From an uncultured bacterium (GTDB lineage Bacteria; Fidelibacterota; Marinisomatia; Marinisomatales; UBA1611), in NCBI GenBank assembly GCA_964525185.1, contig CAZGFQ010000004.1:26890-90889 (forward strand): 64,000 nucleotides of DNA, written 5' to 3'. This document shows positions 42,618-53,685 of the stretch, piece by piece. The notes beneath the pieces were generated by a model that was not told the origin of the DNA, made no database searches, and saw only the letters and a list, made by a program, of their open reading frames with translations. Made by a program: the position numbers and the translations under genes. The stretch's first letter is position 1, and each line of letters begins with the position of its first letter.

Positions 42618-42691
42618 GGGCGATTAACTCAGCTGGTCAGAGTGCTTCCCTTACAAGGAAGAGGTCGGGAGTTCGAATCTCTCATCGCCCA
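42618..42691 (+). tRNA. tRNA-Val (anticodon UAC)
   Basis: Hand-folded cloverleaf. Acceptor gggcgat/atcgccc, D stem actc/gagt, anticodon stem cttcc/ggaag with loop cTTACaa, T arm gggag-ttcgaat-ctctc. No encoded CCA. Confidence 0.9.
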
Positions 42692-42743
42692 CAGAGCCCT
42701 AGTAGAAGTGGCTTGTAACAGTAACAAACGCATAAGGAATAAC

Positions 42744-42953
42744 ATGCCAGAAAGAAAAGAAGGAACCGTAAAATGGTTCAATAATTCAAAGGGCTATGGT
42801 TTTATCGAGTGTGAAGGCGAAAAAGATCTTTTTGTTCATATGAGCGAAATTTTGATGGACGGCTTCAAAACACTTGCTGAAAACCAAAAAGTTGAGTTTG
42901 AAATTGGTGAAGGAACAAAAGGACCTGCAGCCAAGCAAGTAAAACCCCTCTAA
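42744..42953 (+). CDS. Cold-shock domain protein
   Basis: 69 aa from ATG 42744: [30 protein letters not shown] (RNP1/RNP2-like). The upstream part of track ORF 42642..42953 overlaps the tRNA and was discarded. Confidence 0.9.
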
Positions 42954-42990
42954 GTAATTCTTTGTAAAAAGAATTCTTTGGAATTAGTTA

Positions 42991-43024
42991 AAAAGCCATT
43001 CGTTTCGGCGAATGGCTTTTTTTT
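42991..43024. terminator. Bidirectional rho-independent terminator (csp / HesB-like convergent pair)
   Basis: Stem gccattcg/cgaatggc (42995-43002 / 43009-43016). A-run on the 5' side and a T8 run on the 3' side. Confidence 0.85.
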
Positions 43025-43045: not shown

Positions 43046-43324
43046 CTAACAAGCACCAGCAGATTGAATCACTAATCCTTTTCCACGATAATCGTTTACA
43101 TAATCAATCGTAAAGCCGCCTACGTGATTTTGATCTTGCTCGCTAATGATAACGTCTATTCCGTTAATCGAATATTTTTTATCTGTATTATTGGACTCAT
43201 CCAGAGCCATGCCTAAGCTGGGTCCGCCTCATCCAAAACCAGCCATATATACTCTCAATGATTTTCCATCATTTTGAGATAATATAGCATTTATTTCTTT
43301 TTTTGCAATATCTGTAATAGTCAT
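43046..43324 (-). CDS. HesB/IscA-like small protein with in-frame TGA at the conserved Cys position (candidate selenoprotein, Sec32)
   Basis: Hand translation of the minus strand: MTITDIAKKEINAILSQNDGKSLRVYMAGFG[TGA]GGPSLGMALDESNNTDKKYSINGIDVIISEQDQNHVGGFTIDYVNDYRGKGLVIQSAGAC, ending in a TAG stop. TGA at 43231-43229. Invisible to the ORF track because each half is under 60 aa. Confidence 0.65.
43193..43225 (-). other. SECIS-like stem-loop downstream of the HesB-like UGA
   Basis: Counting from the first nt after the UGA. Lower stem G4-C36..C7-G33, upper stem C8-G28, C9-G27, A10-U24, G11-C23, C12-G22, U13-G21 with a bulged CU. Apical loop UAGGCAU places GG 16-17 nt after the UGA. Folded by hand. 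Confidence 0.4.
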
Positions 43325-43441
43325 AATTGTCCTAACATATAATTTTATGATTATTGTTTTGATACATTCCTTAATATTTGGTTACACCTTTTTTAGTTAA
43401 TTTTTCAAAAGAAGAGCCTTGAATAATCATTAGGGAAAAAT

Positions 43442-44458
43442 ATGAATCAAAAACGAGTACTCGTAACAGGCGGCACCGGCTATCTTGGATCTTGGATAAT
43501 AAAAATATTTGCTGAACATGGTTGGCTTGTTACTACAACGGTACGAAGAAATACTGCACCAGAGAATTTATCTGTGCTAGATGAAATAACTGAATCAACT
43601 GGTGTGAATATTGATATTAAATATGCAGATTTACTTACACCTAATTCTTTTGACGATGCAGTAAAAAATATTGATGTCGTTGTCCATTCTGCTTCACCAT
43701 TTGTGGCTTTCGGAACAAAAAATCCTCAGAAAGAATTAATTGATCCCGCCGTTATAGGTACTGAAAATGTTTTACAATCTGCAGCAAACGCTGGTGTAAA
43801 AAAAGTTGTACTTACAAGCAGTATTGCTGCTATGTATGGTGATGGCAGAGAAGTGGACGGAAAAATAATTGATGAATCTTTTTGGAATAGGACAAGCTCC
43901 ACGACGTATAGGCCATATGAATATTCTAAAACAATGGCGGAGAAAAAAGCCTGGGAATGTGCAAAAATTCACTCTTTTGAACTTGTTACCATTAACCCGG
44001 GGTTTATATTGGGGCCTGCGTTAACATCAAGGCAGGATTCTTCATCCATCGAAATAATGAATGATTTTGTAAAAGGTAAATACAAATCGGGGATACCTGA
44101 TACGTCTATTGGAATTGTGGATGTACGAGATGTGGCATTAGCCCATTATTATGCTGCTGAAAAAACGAATATTAAAGGTCGAACTATTATTTGCGCTAAA
44201 GCAATAAAGTTTATTGATATGGCAAATGCAATTCGAAAGAAAGTAGGTGGTTCTGAACCCGTACCAAAAACATTGGTTCCTAAATATCTATTTTGGCTAT
44301 TATCCCCATTATTTGGAATTGAGAGGGCTTATGTGATAGGCAATGTTGGGTTCCATTTTGATATCTCAAATGAAAAAAGTAAAAAAGATCTTCAGATTCA
44401 ATATCGAGATTGGGAAGAAACGGTAGCCGAACATTATCAACAATTAAAGGTTCAATAG
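43442..44458 (+). CDS. NAD-dependent epimerase/dehydratase-family reductase (extended SDR)
   Basis: 338 aa. VLVTGGTGYLGS Rossmann motif, catalytic YEYSK. Confidence 0.8.
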   Translation: MNQKRVLVTGGTGYLGSWIIKIFAEHGWLVTTTVRRNTAPENLSVLDEITESTGVNIDIKYADLLTPNSFDDAVKNIDVVVHSASPFVAFGTKNPQKELIDPAVIGTENVLQSAANAGVKKVVLTSSIAAMYGDGREVDGKIIDESFWNRTSSTTYRPYEYSKTMAEKKAWECAKIHSFELVTINPGFILGPALTSRQDSSSIEIMNDFVKGKYKSGIPDTSIGIVDVRDVALAHYYAAEKTNIKGRTIICAKAIKFIDMANAIRKKVGGSEPVPKTLVPKYLFWLLSPLFGIERAYVIGNVGFHFDISNEKSKKDLQIQYRDWEETVAEHYQQLKVQ

Positions 44459-51407: not shown

Positions 51408-52934
51408 ATGCCTCAAATAGGAATATATATATTTCTATTATTGGCCTCGATTAGTCTAGGTCAACCGGGATTTAGTTTAGAAGATTTAAATCCTAATTCA
51501 CTCACATACGGACAAATGATGGGACCTTCTGATTTTGAAGGAGATGTTACCATTCTTTTTTTTGGACATGAAACGTGAGGTACTTGTCGAAACCGGTTCG
51601 GTTTTCTTAACAAAATACATACTGATCTACAATTATTAAATGTAACTGATGTTCATATACTTGGTATTGGGAAGGATGAGTATAACACATCATTAAATCA
51701 GATGATTGCTGGTGCACATTTGCCTTGGTTGGAAGATTCAAATGCCACTGGATACCCCGTCTGGTCTTCATGGAATGCACAACAGAGATCTATTTTTATA
51801 CTAAATCGTGATGGTACTCAAGATACAACATTTAATATGACACCTTATTCCGAAGATGATCCTGAAGATTATTTATATTTAATGCATTTAATATTAAGCT
51901 ACCGAAATAATGGCGGGAATCAAACGATTCGGATTCCGGAAGATTATCCTGAAATACAAACGGGAATCGATATGAGTCAAGATGGTGATTTAATTATAGT
52001 CGATTCGGGGACATATTTTGAGCAACTAAATTTAATGGGGAAACACATTACATTAGCTTCATTATCTTTTCATAATATGGCTAATGATTATTTAGATGAT
52101 ACTATAATAGATGGGCAAGGAATTGATAGAGTTATAACTATTGAAAATGGAGAAAATTCATCCACAAAGGTTATTGGGCTAACTATTACAAATGGGAATG
52201 CTGATATTGGTTCTGGAATTTTCATTGGGAATAGTTCTAATCCAGTTATTGAAAAAAACAAAATTTTAAATAATAATGGAGTCTGGTGTGGAGCTGTAGG
52301 TGGTGGTATAGCAATTATGGAACAGTCACATCCAAAAATCATTGGGAATATTATTGAAAATAATTCTGTAAATGGCCCTTGTGATTGTATATGCTATTTT
52401 GGAGGAGGAGTATATGTTGACTCTACATCATTCCCAATTGTTGGTGGTGAAGAGGGGCTAGGGAATTCATTTTTTTTGAATAGCAGTGATTACGGTTACC
52501 ATCTTTTTAGGCAACCACCCATGGATACCACTGATATTATACCGATTAATGCAAGATTTAATACATTTGACCAATGTCCACCAGAATATTTTGGCGATGT
52601 TTACCCGGAATTTGGATGGGATGTGTCAAATTGTTATCCAATATTATCCATTGATGATGAATTTGTAACAAATAGTTTTACTTTATTTTCTGCTTACCCT
52701 AATCCATTTAATGGACATGTCACTTTATCATTTTCGCTAGAAAAAGATGAAACCACCCAAATGAAAGTATATGATTTATCAGGCAAATTAGTAGATAAAA
52801 TTTTGAATGAAAAAATGAGAACAGGGGATTACACCATTACATGGGACGCTAATAATTATGCAAGCGGTGTATATATTGTTCAGTTAAATTTTGGTGATGC
52901 ACAAGTATCTCAAAAAATACTTCTCCTTAAATAA
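51408..52934 (+). CDS. Secreted thioredoxin-fold (TlpA/redoxin-like) protein with UxxC motif (in-frame TGA, candidate Sec57), fused to a right-handed beta-helix and a T9SS C-terminal sorting domain
   Basis: ATG 51408 is in phase with track ORF 51702..52934 (offset 294 nt). The only interruption is TGA 51576-51578: ..GDVTILFFGHET[TGA]GTCRNRFGFLNKIH..ILGIGKDEY..LPWLEDS..SIFILNRDG. PbH1-like repeats (NGNADIGSGIFIGNSSNPVIEKNKILNNN...). C-terminal YPNPFNGHVTLSF...VYIVQL tail. Confidence 0.7.
51589..51606 (+). other. SECIS-like hairpin 10 nt downstream of the UGA of the thioredoxin-fold gene
   Basis: GAAACC (51589-51594) pairs with GG(U)UUUC (51600-51606), leaving one bulged U. The apical loop GGUUC places GGU 17-19 nt after the UGA. 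Folded by hand. Confidence 0.5.
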
Positions 52935-53685
52935 GGTTTTCATTTGTATTGCTATTTTAAATGCAGGATCATCCTTGCAGGGAGAAACTTCATTCAAAGG
53001 TGAAACCATGATTAAAGAAATTGATTGGGCGGGAATATCGTTCAAAATGGTTCAAACTGGCGAATCAAATCACAAGTTAATTTGGTTACATGGTGATGAA
53101 AAAACTGCAAAGATGGCATTGGAAGATTATGTTCATCATAATCCCGGGATAGCTTATTTTATTCAATATTCGGAGCGAGAAGTTCCATTTTGGGATACTA
53201 AAGTAGATCCAAATCGTATTTTCTCAACAGTGGGTTCCAGAAAGGCTCTTCAAAAATTCAAAACAGACTGGAATAACACCCAACTCAATGAAGCTGTATC
53301 ATTAATTGAAAGAGAAAGGCGATCTTTTTTAGATGAAATATTTCCAACGAACGGTGGTGTCCTAATATCACTCCACAATAATTTTCGGGGATACGATGTT
53401 CATTCGGAGATAAAAAACAGTACATCTATTTCAATAAAAGAAGGACAAAACCCAAGAGATTTTATCATTTGCACAGAAGAAGAAGATTATCTGAAATTGG
53501 CTAAAGGACCTTATAATGTTGTACTGCAAGATAAAAAAGTTGGAAAAGATGATGGCTCATTATCTTGGGCATCTTTAGACCATGGAATCCGTTATATAAA
53601 TATTGAAGTACGGTTAGGGTGGTTATCAAAACAAAAAAAGATGTTAAACTATATTCACGAAACATTAATACATGAAAATAATTAA
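52897..53685 (+). CDS. Hypothetical exported protein, possibly a zinc carboxypeptidase/amidase-like (MpaA/M14-like) fold
   Basis: About 262 aa. Signal-like VFICIAILNAGSS. WLHGDEKTA and VDPNRIFS resemble the HxxE and DxNRNF segments of M14-type enzymes, but this is a weak call. The start is uncertain (52891/52894/52897). Confidence 0.4.
   Translation: MHKYLKKYFSLNKVFICIAILNAGSSLQGETSFKGETMIKEIDWAGISFKMVQTGESNHKLIWLHGDEKTAKMALEDYVHHNPGIAYFIQYSEREVPFWDTKVDPNRIFSTVGSRKALQKFKTDWNNTQLNEAVSLIERERRSFLDEIFPTNGGVLISLHNNFRGYDVHSEIKNSTSISIKEGQNPRDFIICTEEEDYLKLAKGPYNVVLQDKKVGKDDGSLSWASLDHGIRYINIEVRLGWLSKQKKMLNYIHETLIHENN

What the first reader, a model, noticed from the sequence alone, without database searches (positions are those of the whole stretch)
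43046..43324. Hidden gene: HesB/IscA-like protein with TGA at the conserved cluster-ligand Cys position
Seen directly:
- The 488-nt gap between csp and the SDR gene has no track ORF.
- The minus strand reads ATG (43324) ... TAG (43048-43046), 93 codons, with a single in-frame TGA at 43231-43229.
- Translation: MTITDIAKKEINAILSQNDGKSLRVYMAGFG[TGA]GGPSLGMALDESNNTDKKYSINGIDVIISEQDQNHVGGFTIDYVNDYRGKGLVIQSAGAC.
- The pattern (LRVY..G.G-x-GGP.LGMALDE ... ID, plus a C-terminal Cys) is that of small HesB/IscA-related proteins. The TGA occupies the position of the conserved Cys.
- By hand, the mRNA after the UGA folds into a two-tier stem (plus-strand 43193-43225). The apical loop UAGGCAU places GG 16-17 nt after the UGA. 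This is the same spacing as in the second candidate at 51576.
- The gene has its own SD-like agga and ends at a bidirectional terminator.

Established knowledge: a HesB-like selenoprotein family, with Sec aligned to the HesB Cys, has been described (I recall it as TIGR01911). The gene type is therefore not new.

Inference: its presence here, together with the gene at 51408, implies a Sec-decoding trait in this lineage.
Basis: partly seen in the sequence, partly recalled or inferred. Interest (0 to 1): 0.75.

Follow-up and report, generated by a model that had tools for sequence, protein, structure and literature searches.

The report
Unannotated HesB/IscA-like selenoprotein gene
A small gene that annotation pipelines cut in half at an in-frame TGA is a real selenocysteine-containing relative of iron-sulfur carrier proteins in a marine Marinimicrobia bacterium; the protein family is already known, so this is a sound but ordinary find.

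Summary
The minus strand 43324..43046 encodes 92 codons with one in-frame TGA (43231-43229). With U read as C, the protein passes Pfam Fe-S_biosyn, and its model has the IscA fold (TM 0.80). The TGA aligns with the first cluster-ligand Cys of IscA. The TGA is not an error: six independent assemblies carry it, and so do diverged Marinimicrobia orthologues with dN/dS 0.03-0.33 on both sides. It is also present in 79/80 metagenome loci and 79/80 named-genome loci found by a peptide pattern that excludes that codon. TGA is an ordinary stop elsewhere in the window.

The conserved element is a 15-nt hairpin, GGCUC-UGGAU-GAGYC (window 43208..43194). Its synonymous sites are frozen: GCT 137/138, CTG 138/138, GAG 134/138. 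The only two Cys-type homologues differ at those codons. The hairpin meets four of the five published bacterial SECIS criteria; the free-energy criterion is borderline.

The protein and nine relatives score below the trusted cut-offs of NF038090 and TIGR01911. They form an uncaptured clade of a known family. Sec machinery could not be checked in this genome. The literature lists two SAR406 genomes as Sec users. Verdict: supported; a new member of a known kind.

The parts
43046..43324 (-). Complete coding sequence of a 92-residue HesB/IscA-like selenoprotein (ATG 43324; TAG 43048-43046)
   Evidence: sequence and translation; family hits; IscA fold, pLDDT 91.4, TM 0.80 to 1R94; dN/dS 0.03-0.33 on both sides of the TGA.
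43229..43231 (-). In-frame TGA, inferred Sec codon (residue 32, motif G-U-G-G-P)
   Evidence: Aligns with IscA Cys35. The column holds W(=TGA)/C in homologues. TGA in 79/80 metagenome loci and 79/80 genome loci. Identical in six assemblies.
43194..43208 (-). Family-conserved SECIS-like hairpin GGCUC-UGGAU-GAGUC (5 bp, one G-U; loop 43203-43199 with GG at 43202-43201; 25 nt between UGA and loop)
   Evidence: This is the RNAalifold consensus. The five core pairs are standard pairs in 97-100% of 70 sequences, with G-C to A-U double changes in 3. Synonymous sites are frozen: GCT 137/138, CTG 138/138, GAG 134/138. Both Cys-type homologues deviate at those codons. Sequence read.
43193..43225 (-).
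   Evidence: The pairs are possible in the window, but ensemble probability is 0.02-0.04. Across the family only 69% of cells pair, and pairs 22-36 and 23-35 are unpaired in 59/70 and 28/70 sequences. It is degraded in the more distant Marinimicrobia orthologue L029.
43330..43333 (-). Shine-Dalgarno-like AGGA, 5 nt upstream of the ATG
   Evidence: Read directly.
43049..43051 (-). Codon of the C-terminal Cys92, the only other Cys/Sec in the protein
   Evidence: The last residue is Cys in at least 90% of 50 aligned homologues and in 82 of about 150 representatives.
42990..43021 (.). Intrinsic-terminator-like hairpin flanked by A and T runs, shared with the convergent csp gene
   Evidence: 14 pairs, loop 4. 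The minus strand reads GCCATTCG-CCGAAA-CGAATGGC followed by TTTTT.

Best explanation
The gap holds a genuine gene for a 92-residue selenoprotein of the IscA/HesB (A-type carrier) fold, in a Marinimicrobia (SAR406 / Neomarinimicrobiota, now Fidelibacterota) genome.

How decoding works (inferred). The UGA at codon 32 is decoded as selenocysteine rather than stop. A small hairpin in the coding sequence, GGCUC-UGGAU-GAGUC, begins 20 nt after the UGA, and its loop begins 25 nt after it. The GG in its apical loop is the most likely site where the Sec-specific elongation factor SelB docks to deliver Sec-tRNA(Sec). That the UGA is translated is shown by comparative evidence; that Sec is the inserted residue is inferred.

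What the protein does (inferred). Sec32 sits where the first cluster-ligand Cys of IscA sits (shown by alignment). The only other Cys is the conserved C-terminal residue, on a flexible tail. The canonical C-terminal Cys-x-Cys of A-type carriers is missing. The most likely chemistry is metal or Fe-S binding at a dimer interface through Sec32 and Cys92. A Sec32-Cys92 selenenylsulfide redox couple is the alternative. This step is not shown here and has not been tested for this family.
For: - Sequence and ORF.
- Family and fold: PF01521 above threshold; best NCBIfam hits NF038090 IscA_HesB_Se and TIGR01911 HesB_rel_seleno; AF2 model pLDDT 91.4; Foldseek TM 0.80 to E. coli IscA and 0.76 to SufA.
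- TGA aligned to Cys.
- TGA conserved: six assemblies; four Marinimicrobia orthologue groups, several in different gene neighbourhoods; 79/80 and 79/80 loci found with a peptide pattern that does not include that codon.
- Purifying selection on both halves.
- TGA is a normal stop in this window: 7 of 46 long ORFs.
- Hairpin: RNAalifold consensus, pair counts, frozen synonymous sites and deviation in both Cys-type homologues.
- Fit to the published bacterial SECIS model (loop 3-9 nt, stem 4-16 bp, G in the first two loop positions followed by G or U, spacing 16-37 nt): PMC13188914, read.
- A tRNA-Sec gene lies about 70 nt from a TGA-type family member in locus L075.
- Motif UxGP is given for HesB-like selenoproteins in PMC13188914.
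- Two SAR406 genomes are listed as Sec-utilising, with 1 and 5 selenoproteins, in PMC5029168 Table S2.
Against: - No selA, selB, selD or tRNA-Sec lies in the window, within 10 kb either side, or in any fetched Marinimicrobia locus. Sec machinery is therefore unverified for this genome.
- Three other SAR406 single-cell genomes were published as 'orphan SelD' with no selenoprotein genes.
- In the window the conserved hairpin is weak on its own (-5.7 kcal/mol, one G-U pair). Alternative folds out-compete it in the free-RNA ensemble (pair probability 0.04-0.15).
- Three of the five core pairs never vary, so covariation support is thin.
- The protein is below the trusted cut-offs of both curated selenoprotein HMMs.
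- No protein-level evidence for Sec, and no biochemical function is known for this family.
Confidence: 0.9

Rival explanations
1. The TGA is a real stop. The locus is a pseudogene, or only the 54-residue C-terminal fragment starting at ATG 43210 is made, as public MAG annotations have it.
For: Gene callers annotate only a 52-54-residue fragment, named 'hypothetical protein' or 'IscA', in Marinimicrobia MAGs. ORF listing gives separate 31-aa and 54-aa ORFs.
Against: The 31 codons upstream of the TGA are under purifying selection as strong as the downstream part (dN/dS 0.03-0.33). The TGA is kept at the same codon in 158 of 160 loci across many phyla. The N-terminal part supplies the first helix and strand of the IscA fold. 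No SD-like sequence sits at a normal distance before ATG 43210.
Confidence: 0.04
2. The TGA is read as a standard amino acid (Trp, Gly or Cys), either through a reassigned genetic code or through near-cognate read-through, with no selenocysteine involved.
For: Some gene callers translated the gene under code 4 and wrote W (P0001, P0002). Sec machinery is not verified in this genome. Three SAR406 genomes were reported as orphan-SelD.
Against: TGA ends 7 of 46 long ORFs in the window, and many family members themselves end in TGA, so the code is standard. The codon aligns with a Cys ligand, never with Trp or Gly, in Cys-type homologues. A hairpin with the features of a bacterial SECIS is fixed at synonymous sites only in TGA-type genes. 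The family occurs in lineages with an established Sec trait, such as Desulfuromonadales and Bacillaceae (PMC1794560).
Confidence: 0.04
3. The TGA is a sequencing or assembly error of a TGT/TGC Cys codon.
For: A single-base change would restore Cys. Only assembled contigs were seen, not reads.
Against: The gene is identical, TGA included, in six independent assemblies from different samples. The TGA is also present in orthologues at 62-90% identity from other studies.
Confidence: 0.01
4. The functional SECIS in this lineage is the reader's upstream two-tier stem (apical loop UAGGCAU, GG about 16 nt after the UGA), not the family hairpin. It would match the spacing of the hairpin after the second TGA at 51576.
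For: It is the MFE fold in two close orthologues (pair probability 0.9 in L017, 0.55 in L028). The sequence AGCUUAGGCAUGGCU is nucleotide-invariant among the closest Marinimicrobia orthologues. The hairpin after the TGA at 51576 has its loop (GUU) 17 nt after the UGA.
Against: In the window itself its probability is 0.02-0.04. It is lost in the more distant Marinimicrobia orthologues (L029) and across the family. Its loop starts 13 nt after the UGA and lacks G in the first two loop positions, so it falls outside the published model. Its lower tier lies within about 4-13 nt of the UGA. From general knowledge of ribosome footprints, that stretch would be inside the ribosome when the UGA is in the A site.
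Confidence: 0.12

Closest known systems
HesB-like selenoprotein family (Zhang, Gladyshev and co-workers; TIGR01911 HesB_rel_seleno; NCBIfam NF038090 IscA_HesB_Se)
   Same: A small (about 90-100 aa) IscA/HesB-fold protein with Sec encoded by TGA at the position of the first conserved Cys. It has the UxGP motif (here U-G-G-P). Cys-containing homologues exist. The family occurs mainly in low-oxygen organisms.
   Different: It scores below both trusted cut-offs (66.5 vs 85; 51.4 vs 66.35). So do nine TGA-type relatives from Marinimicrobia, Bacillaceae, Desulfuromonadales, Spirochaetaceae, Myxococcota, Chloroflexia and SAR324. This looks like a distinct clade, defined by G-U-G-G-P-x-L-G-[LM]-A-L-D-E, a terminal Cys and an invariant 15-nt hairpin. 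The host phylum (Marinimicrobia) has no annotated member; public records hold only truncated fragments.
A-type Fe-S carriers IscA / SufA / ErpA (PF01521; PDB 1R94, 1S98, 2D2A, 1X0G, 2APN)
   Same: Same fold (TM 0.76-0.80). The ligand position in the GCxG loop is conserved.
   Different: Sec replaces Cys at the first ligand. The C-terminal Cys-x-Cys pair is replaced by one terminal Cys. The equivalog HMMs for IscA, SufA, ErpA and NfuA are all far below their cut-offs. Fe-S binding is therefore inferred, not established.
Bacterial SECIS consensus model (bSECISearch; summarised in PMC13188914)
   Same: Apical loop of 5 nt with G at position 2 followed by G. Upper stem of 5 bp. 25 nt between the UGA and the loop. 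The element lies inside the coding sequence immediately downstream of the UGA.
   Different: The hairpin alone is -5.7 kcal/mol in the window, weaker than the model's -7.5 threshold. The region reaches -8.7 only with an extra 5' mini-hairpin. The element is unusually sequence-invariant across phyla, whereas bacterial SECIS elements are usually described as poorly conserved in sequence.

Membership tests
Pfam PF01521 Fe-S_biosyn (IscA/HesB superfamily) | Score at or above the gathering threshold | tested here: met
   32.2 bits against 26.3; residues 1-85 match.
IscA/HesB superfamily | IscA-type alpha/beta fold | tested here: met
   AF2 pLDDT 91.4, pTM 0.79. Foldseek against PDB: 1R94 IscA TM 0.80, 2D2A SufA TM 0.76, probability 1.00.
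HesB-like selenoprotein (as defined in the literature) | In-frame TGA aligned with the first conserved Cys of HesB/IscA; motif UxGP | tested here: met
   U-G-G-P. Aligned to the Cys of GCSG in IscA, HI1723 and AQ_1857. Column W(=TGA) 92 / C 50 in representatives. Motif from PMC13188914.
HesB-like selenoprotein (as defined in the literature) | TGA-containing orthologues in other organisms, plus Cys-containing homologues | tested here: met
   79/80 metagenome and 79/80 genome loci carry TGA; one TGT and one TGC. 50 Cys-type representatives.
TIGR01911 HesB_rel_seleno | Score at or above the curated cut-off of 66.35 bits | tested here: not met
   51.4 bits, E = 1.3e-13. The relatives tested score 39.8-52.1, or were not listed at E <= 1e-8.
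NF038090 IscA_HesB_Se | Score at or above the curated cut-off of 85 bits | tested here: not met
   66.5 bits, E = 2e-18; this is the best hit. Nine relatives score 48.5-71.9.
Canonical A-type carrier (IscA/SufA/ErpA) | Three ligand cysteines: Cys35 and the C-terminal Cys99-x-Cys101 (E. coli IscA numbering, from established knowledge) | tested here: not met
   The first position is Sec. The C-terminus is ...SAGAC with a single Cys. The IscA, SufA and ErpA equivalogs score 17-39 bits against cut-offs of 117-181.
Bacterial SECIS (bSECIS consensus model) | Apical loop of 3-9 nt, upper stem of 4-16 bp, G in the first two loop positions, 16-37 nt from the UGA | tested here: met
   Loop UGGAU, stem of 5 bp, spacing of 25 nt. 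Criteria quoted from PMC13188914.
Bacterial SECIS (bSECIS consensus model) | Minimum free energy of -7.5 kcal/mol or lower | tested here: inconclusive
   Hairpin alone -5.7. The 48-nt region with the hairpin enforced gives -8.7. The unconstrained MFE of -9.7 is a different fold. In most other family members the hairpin alone is -7.7 to -9.1.
Bacterial SECIS | Binding by SelB and selenium-dependent UGA read-through | not testable with these tools
   Needs a reporter or binding assay.
Sec-decoding trait | selA, selB, selC (tRNA-Sec) and selD in the same genome | not testable with these tools
   None in the window, its 10-kb flanks or the fetched loci. The rest of the genome is out of reach. Phylum-level literature: two SAR406 genomes are listed as Sec users and three as orphan SelD.

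The most novel reading that the evidence does not exclude
The TGA-type clade defined here has the motif G-U-G-G-P-x-L-G-[LM]-A-L-D-E, a single conserved C-terminal Cys and no Cys-x-Cys. It falls below both curated HesB-selenoprotein HMM cut-offs. It carries a 15-nt hairpin that is nearly invariant from Marinimicrobia to Bacillaceae. The novel reading is that this clade is functionally distinct: not an Fe-S carrier, but, for example, a Sec/Cys redox or selenium/metal-handling protein. On that reading its sequence-frozen hairpin does more than serve as a generic SECIS, for example by acting as a regulatory or SelB-independent recoding signal.
Probability: 0.12. Interest if true: 0.5.

Novelty: new member of a known kind. 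Interest (0 to 1): 0.25.

Why it matters
This is mainly a matter of annotation quality.
- In every public Marinimicrobia record seen, the gene appears as a truncated 52-54-residue 'hypothetical protein' or 'IscA' fragment.
- The two curated HMMs meant to catch HesB-like selenoproteins miss this whole clade at their trusted cut-offs.

The gene also gives direct gene-level evidence that abundant oxygen-minimum-zone Marinimicrobia use selenocysteine. Some single-cell genomes of the phylum were published as 'orphan SelD' with no selenoprotein genes (PMC5029168).

The frozen 15-nt hairpin is a convenient marker for finding these genes. It is also a clean natural example of an RNA constraint overriding codon choice. 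None of this changes what is known about selenoprotein biology.

Tried and rejected
- **Word-indexed protein search**: found only 3 relatives. The representative search was needed to see the family.
I rebuilt the query from the part after the Sec codon, so that W (=TGG) would not be back-translated in place of TGA.
- **Rfam**: nothing but the tRNA-Val at gathering threshold. Only a chance snoRNA match at E = 0.35 in the SECIS region.
- **Sec machinery search**: I ran tblastn with E. coli SelA, SelB and SelD (fetched) against the window and all fetched loci. It found only EF-Tu. ARAGORN found tRNA-Sec only in L075, an unrelated organism.
- **Further protein searches with E. coli SelA/SelB**: not run. 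The word index reaches only close relatives, so it would not reach Marinimicrobia.
- **Literature**: searches for Marinimicrobia, SAR406, Marinisomatota or Fidelibacter together with selenocysteine or selenoprotein gave only PMC5029168 as relevant.
- **Exact look-up of U-containing sequences**: X and C variants are not in the collection, so I could not check whether RefSeq annotates the Bacillaceae members as selenoproteins.
- **Sigma-70 promoter scan**: nothing convincing upstream of the gene. That is expected for an FCB-group organism and was not pursued.
- **Alternative genetic code**: considered and rejected.

Full report
**1. The observation.**
- The minus strand from 43324 to 43046 reads ATG, 31 sense codons, TGA (43231-43229), 60 sense codons, TAG.
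- The gene lies in the 488-nt gap between a cold-shock gene that ends at 42953 and an SDR/epimerase gene that starts at 43442.
- An AGGA sits 5 nt before the ATG.
- A 14-bp hairpin flanked by A and T runs (42990-43021) separates the gene from the convergent csp.
It is not the predicted fold of this sequence: its apical stem has an ensemble probability of 0.02-0.04, and the stretch folds no better than shuffles (z = -1.22).

**2. What the protein is.**
- With Cys in place of the TGA, the protein passes Pfam PF01521 Fe-S_biosyn (32.2 bits against 26.3).
- Its best NCBIfam hits are the two models built for Sec-containing HesB relatives: NF038090 IscA_HesB_Se (66.5 bits, E = 2e-18) and TIGR01911 HesB_rel_seleno (51.4 bits). 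Generic IscA/ErpA models follow. All of these are below their curated cut-offs.
- An AlphaFold model built on a 50-sequence alignment is confident (pLDDT 91.4). It superposes on E. coli IscA (TM 0.80), SufA (TM 0.76) and the cluster-bound IscA 1X0G.
- In HMMER alignments to solved structures, the TGA position aligns with the Cys of the GCSG loop in E. coli IscA, HI1723 and AQ_1857. By established knowledge this is the first cluster ligand, Cys35.
- The canonical C-terminal Cys-x-Cys is missing. The protein ends ...SAGAC, and the terminal Cys is conserved in at least 90% of 50 aligned homologues.

**3. The TGA is real and is translated.**
- Six independent ENA metagenome assemblies carry the identical gene, TGA included.
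- Two diverged orthologues from other contigs (89% and 80% amino-acid identity), in different gene neighbourhoods, keep the TGA at the same codon. So do two more distant Marinimicrobia orthologues at 62-67%.
- Nei-Gojobori estimates give dN/dS of 0.03-0.33 for the 31 codons before the TGA and 0.08-0.25 for the 60 codons after it. Both halves are therefore protein-coding in one frame.
- In an exhaustive HMMER search, 344 cluster representatives match. In the column of the TGA, 92 of the best 150 hold W. These are genes that callers read under code 4, so the codon is TGA. Another 50 hold C, and 6 are truncated there.
- I scanned the metagenome and GTDB-genome collections with a peptide pattern taken from downstream of the codon, so the scan is unbiased for the codon itself. 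TGA was found in 79 of 80 loci each time; the exceptions were one TGT and one TGC.
- TGA ends 7 of 46 long ORFs in the window, so the genetic code is standard.

**4. The recoding signal.**
- Aligning 70 distinct TGA-type sequences from -9 to +45 shows an almost invariant GGCUCUGGAUGAGCC. It corresponds to codons Ala-Leu-Asp-Glu-Pro/Ser.
- RNAalifold selects exactly this as the only consensus structure: a 5-bp stem with loop UGGAY.
- Among 138 distinct TGA-type sequences, the Ala codon is GCT in 137, the Leu codon is CTG in 138 and the Glu codon is GAG in 134.
- Controls nearby vary freely. The neighbouring Gly codons use all four synonymous codons roughly evenly. A Leu four codons earlier uses TTG 58, CTG 51, TTA 24 and CTT 4.
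- The outer pairs show G-C to A-U double changes in 3 sequences and G-C to G-U changes in 15.
- The only two Cys-type homologues recovered differ at exactly the frozen sites. L096 has GCA and GAA, which break two stem pairs. L173 has CTC, which changes the first loop G.
- The hairpin fits the published bacterial SECIS model on four criteria: a loop of 3-9 nt, a stem of 4-16 bp, G in the first two loop positions followed by G or U, and 16-37 nt from the UGA. Here the values are 5 nt, 5 bp, U-G-G and 25 nt (PMC13188914).
- In the window it lies at 43208..43194 and carries one G-U pair, because the next codon is Ser (UCC). Of the 138 sequences, 19 also have Ser there.
- Its stability in the window is modest. 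The hairpin alone gives -5.7 kcal/mol; the region with the hairpin enforced gives -8.7; a different unconstrained fold gives -9.7.
It is also lost in the more distant Marinimicrobia orthologue. I therefore reassign the SECIS to the downstream hairpin.
- I cannot exclude that the close Marinimicrobia orthologues use the upstream fold, which is their MFE in two cases.

**5. Organism and Sec trait.**
- The truncated product is named as from Candidatus Marinimicrobia / Neomarinimicrobiota MAGs.
- The window is syntenic over 20 kb, at 79.5% nucleotide identity, with contig JADHUI010000003.1 of MAG BS150m-G42. The gene sits at the same place in that contig.
- NCBI now files the name Candidatus Neomarinimicrobiota under the phylum Fidelibacterota in the FCB group.
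- No sel gene or tRNA-Sec lies in the window, its 10-kb flanks or any fetched Marinimicrobia locus. The rest of the genome could not be reached with these tools.
- Peng et al. 2016 (PMC5029168) list two SAR406 single-cell genomes among Sec-utilising organisms, with 1 and 5 selenoproteins (Table S2). They list three others as 'orphan SelD' without selenoprotein genes.
- The present gene and the second TGA candidate in the window are consistent with a Sec trait in the phylum. The orphan status of the other three genomes may simply reflect incomplete genomes.

**6. Comparison with what is known.**
- HesB-like selenoproteins are an established family. The literature records 11 genes in 2006 and 90 genes in 86 organisms in 2016, with motif UxGP and model TIGR01911 (PMC1794560, PMC5029168, PMC13188914).
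- None was found in the oxic Sargasso Sea data (PMC1088965). That matches the low-oxygen sources of several of the orthologue-bearing MAGs, judging from names such as BS150m and the SI0xx bins.
- Membership in the literature-defined family is met: fold, Sec/Cys pairing, the UxGP motif, TGA orthologues and a SECIS-like element. Membership by the curated HMM thresholds is not met.
- This shortfall is not peculiar to the window. Nine TGA-type relatives from Marinimicrobia, Bacillaceae, Desulfuromonadales, Spirochaetaceae, Myxococcota, Chloroflexia and SAR324 all fall below both cut-offs.
- The clade is large: 341 confirmed stretches in GTDB species representatives and more than 506 in metagenomes.

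**7. Mechanism and confidence.**
- Shown here: the gene, its fold, the TGA at the ligand Cys position, translation across the TGA (comparative evidence), and an RNA-level constraint on the hairpin that is tied to the TGA.
- Inferred: insertion of Sec by SelB and tRNA-Sec, and a metal/Fe-S or redox role for the Sec32 and Cys92 pair.
- I put 0.9 on this being a genuine Sec-encoding HesB/IscA-like gene, and roughly even odds between Fe-S/metal binding and a redox couple for its chemistry.

**8. Verdict.** What it adds is a missed selenoprotein in an abundant marine phylum, a corrected SECIS assignment, and a clade that current curated models under-call.

Noticed in passing
window 51408-52937 (+), TGA at 51576-51578: A 509-codon reading frame with a single in-frame TGA in the motif HET-U-GTC (UxxC). 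It has a signal-peptide-like N-terminus. A weak thioredoxin-fold region (AhpC-TSA 21.2, Thioredoxin_8 20.7 and Redoxin 14.4 bits, all below threshold) is fused in frame to the annotated 410-aa Beta_helix / Por_Secre_tail (T9SS) protein. A 7-bp hairpin with loop GUU starts 10 nt after the UGA, with its loop 17 nt after it, but the region folds no better than shuffles (z = +0.43). This looks like a second, secreted selenoprotein candidate.
   Followed up: partly
L075:901-1243 (metagenome contig Ga0105099_10014341): A tRNA-SeC (anticodon tca) gene lies on the opposite strand about 70 nt downstream of a TGA-type HesB-like gene. This is a direct physical link between the family and Sec machinery in another organism.
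   Followed up: partly
L110-L189 (GTDB genome loci): All nine TGA-type relatives tested score below the NF038090 and TIGR01911 trusted cut-offs. They include cultured Bacillaceae (Halalkalibacter), Desulfuromonas, Spirochaetaceae, Myxococcota, Chloroflexia and SAR324. Current curated HMMs therefore under-call a clade with 341 confirmed stretches in species-representative genomes.
   Followed up: partly
L168:9613 and 10000 (Desulfuromonadales MAG); L125 and L127 (one Chloroflexia MAG): Some genomes carry two TGA-type copies, in tandem (about 390 nt apart) or on separate contigs.
   Followed up: no
P0004 (protein from the representative search): A 4171-residue protein with ten separate stretches matching this small domain (26% identity, E = 1.7e-19). 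This is an unexpected giant multi-repeat architecture for an IscA/HesB-like module.
   Followed up: no
L144, L156, L161, L188 (Halalkalibacter / Alkalihalobacillus genomes): These are the four TGA-type sequences with GAA instead of GAG, which breaks an inner stem pair. They keep an outer CUGG/CCAG pairing, so the hairpin may be remodelled in this group.
   Followed up: no
window 42618-42692 (+) and 42642-42953 (+): A tRNA-Val (tac) lies immediately upstream of the cold-shock gene. The mechanical 103-aa ORF at 42642 overlaps the tRNA; the real csp is the 69-aa product at about 42744-42953.
   Followed up: no
Literature, PMC5029168 Table 1 against Table S2: Three SAR406 single-cell genomes are published as 'orphan SelD' with no selenoprotein genes, and two others as Sec users. 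The conserved selenoprotein genes found here in several Marinimicrobia MAGs suggest the orphan calls may reflect incomplete genomes.
   Followed up: partly
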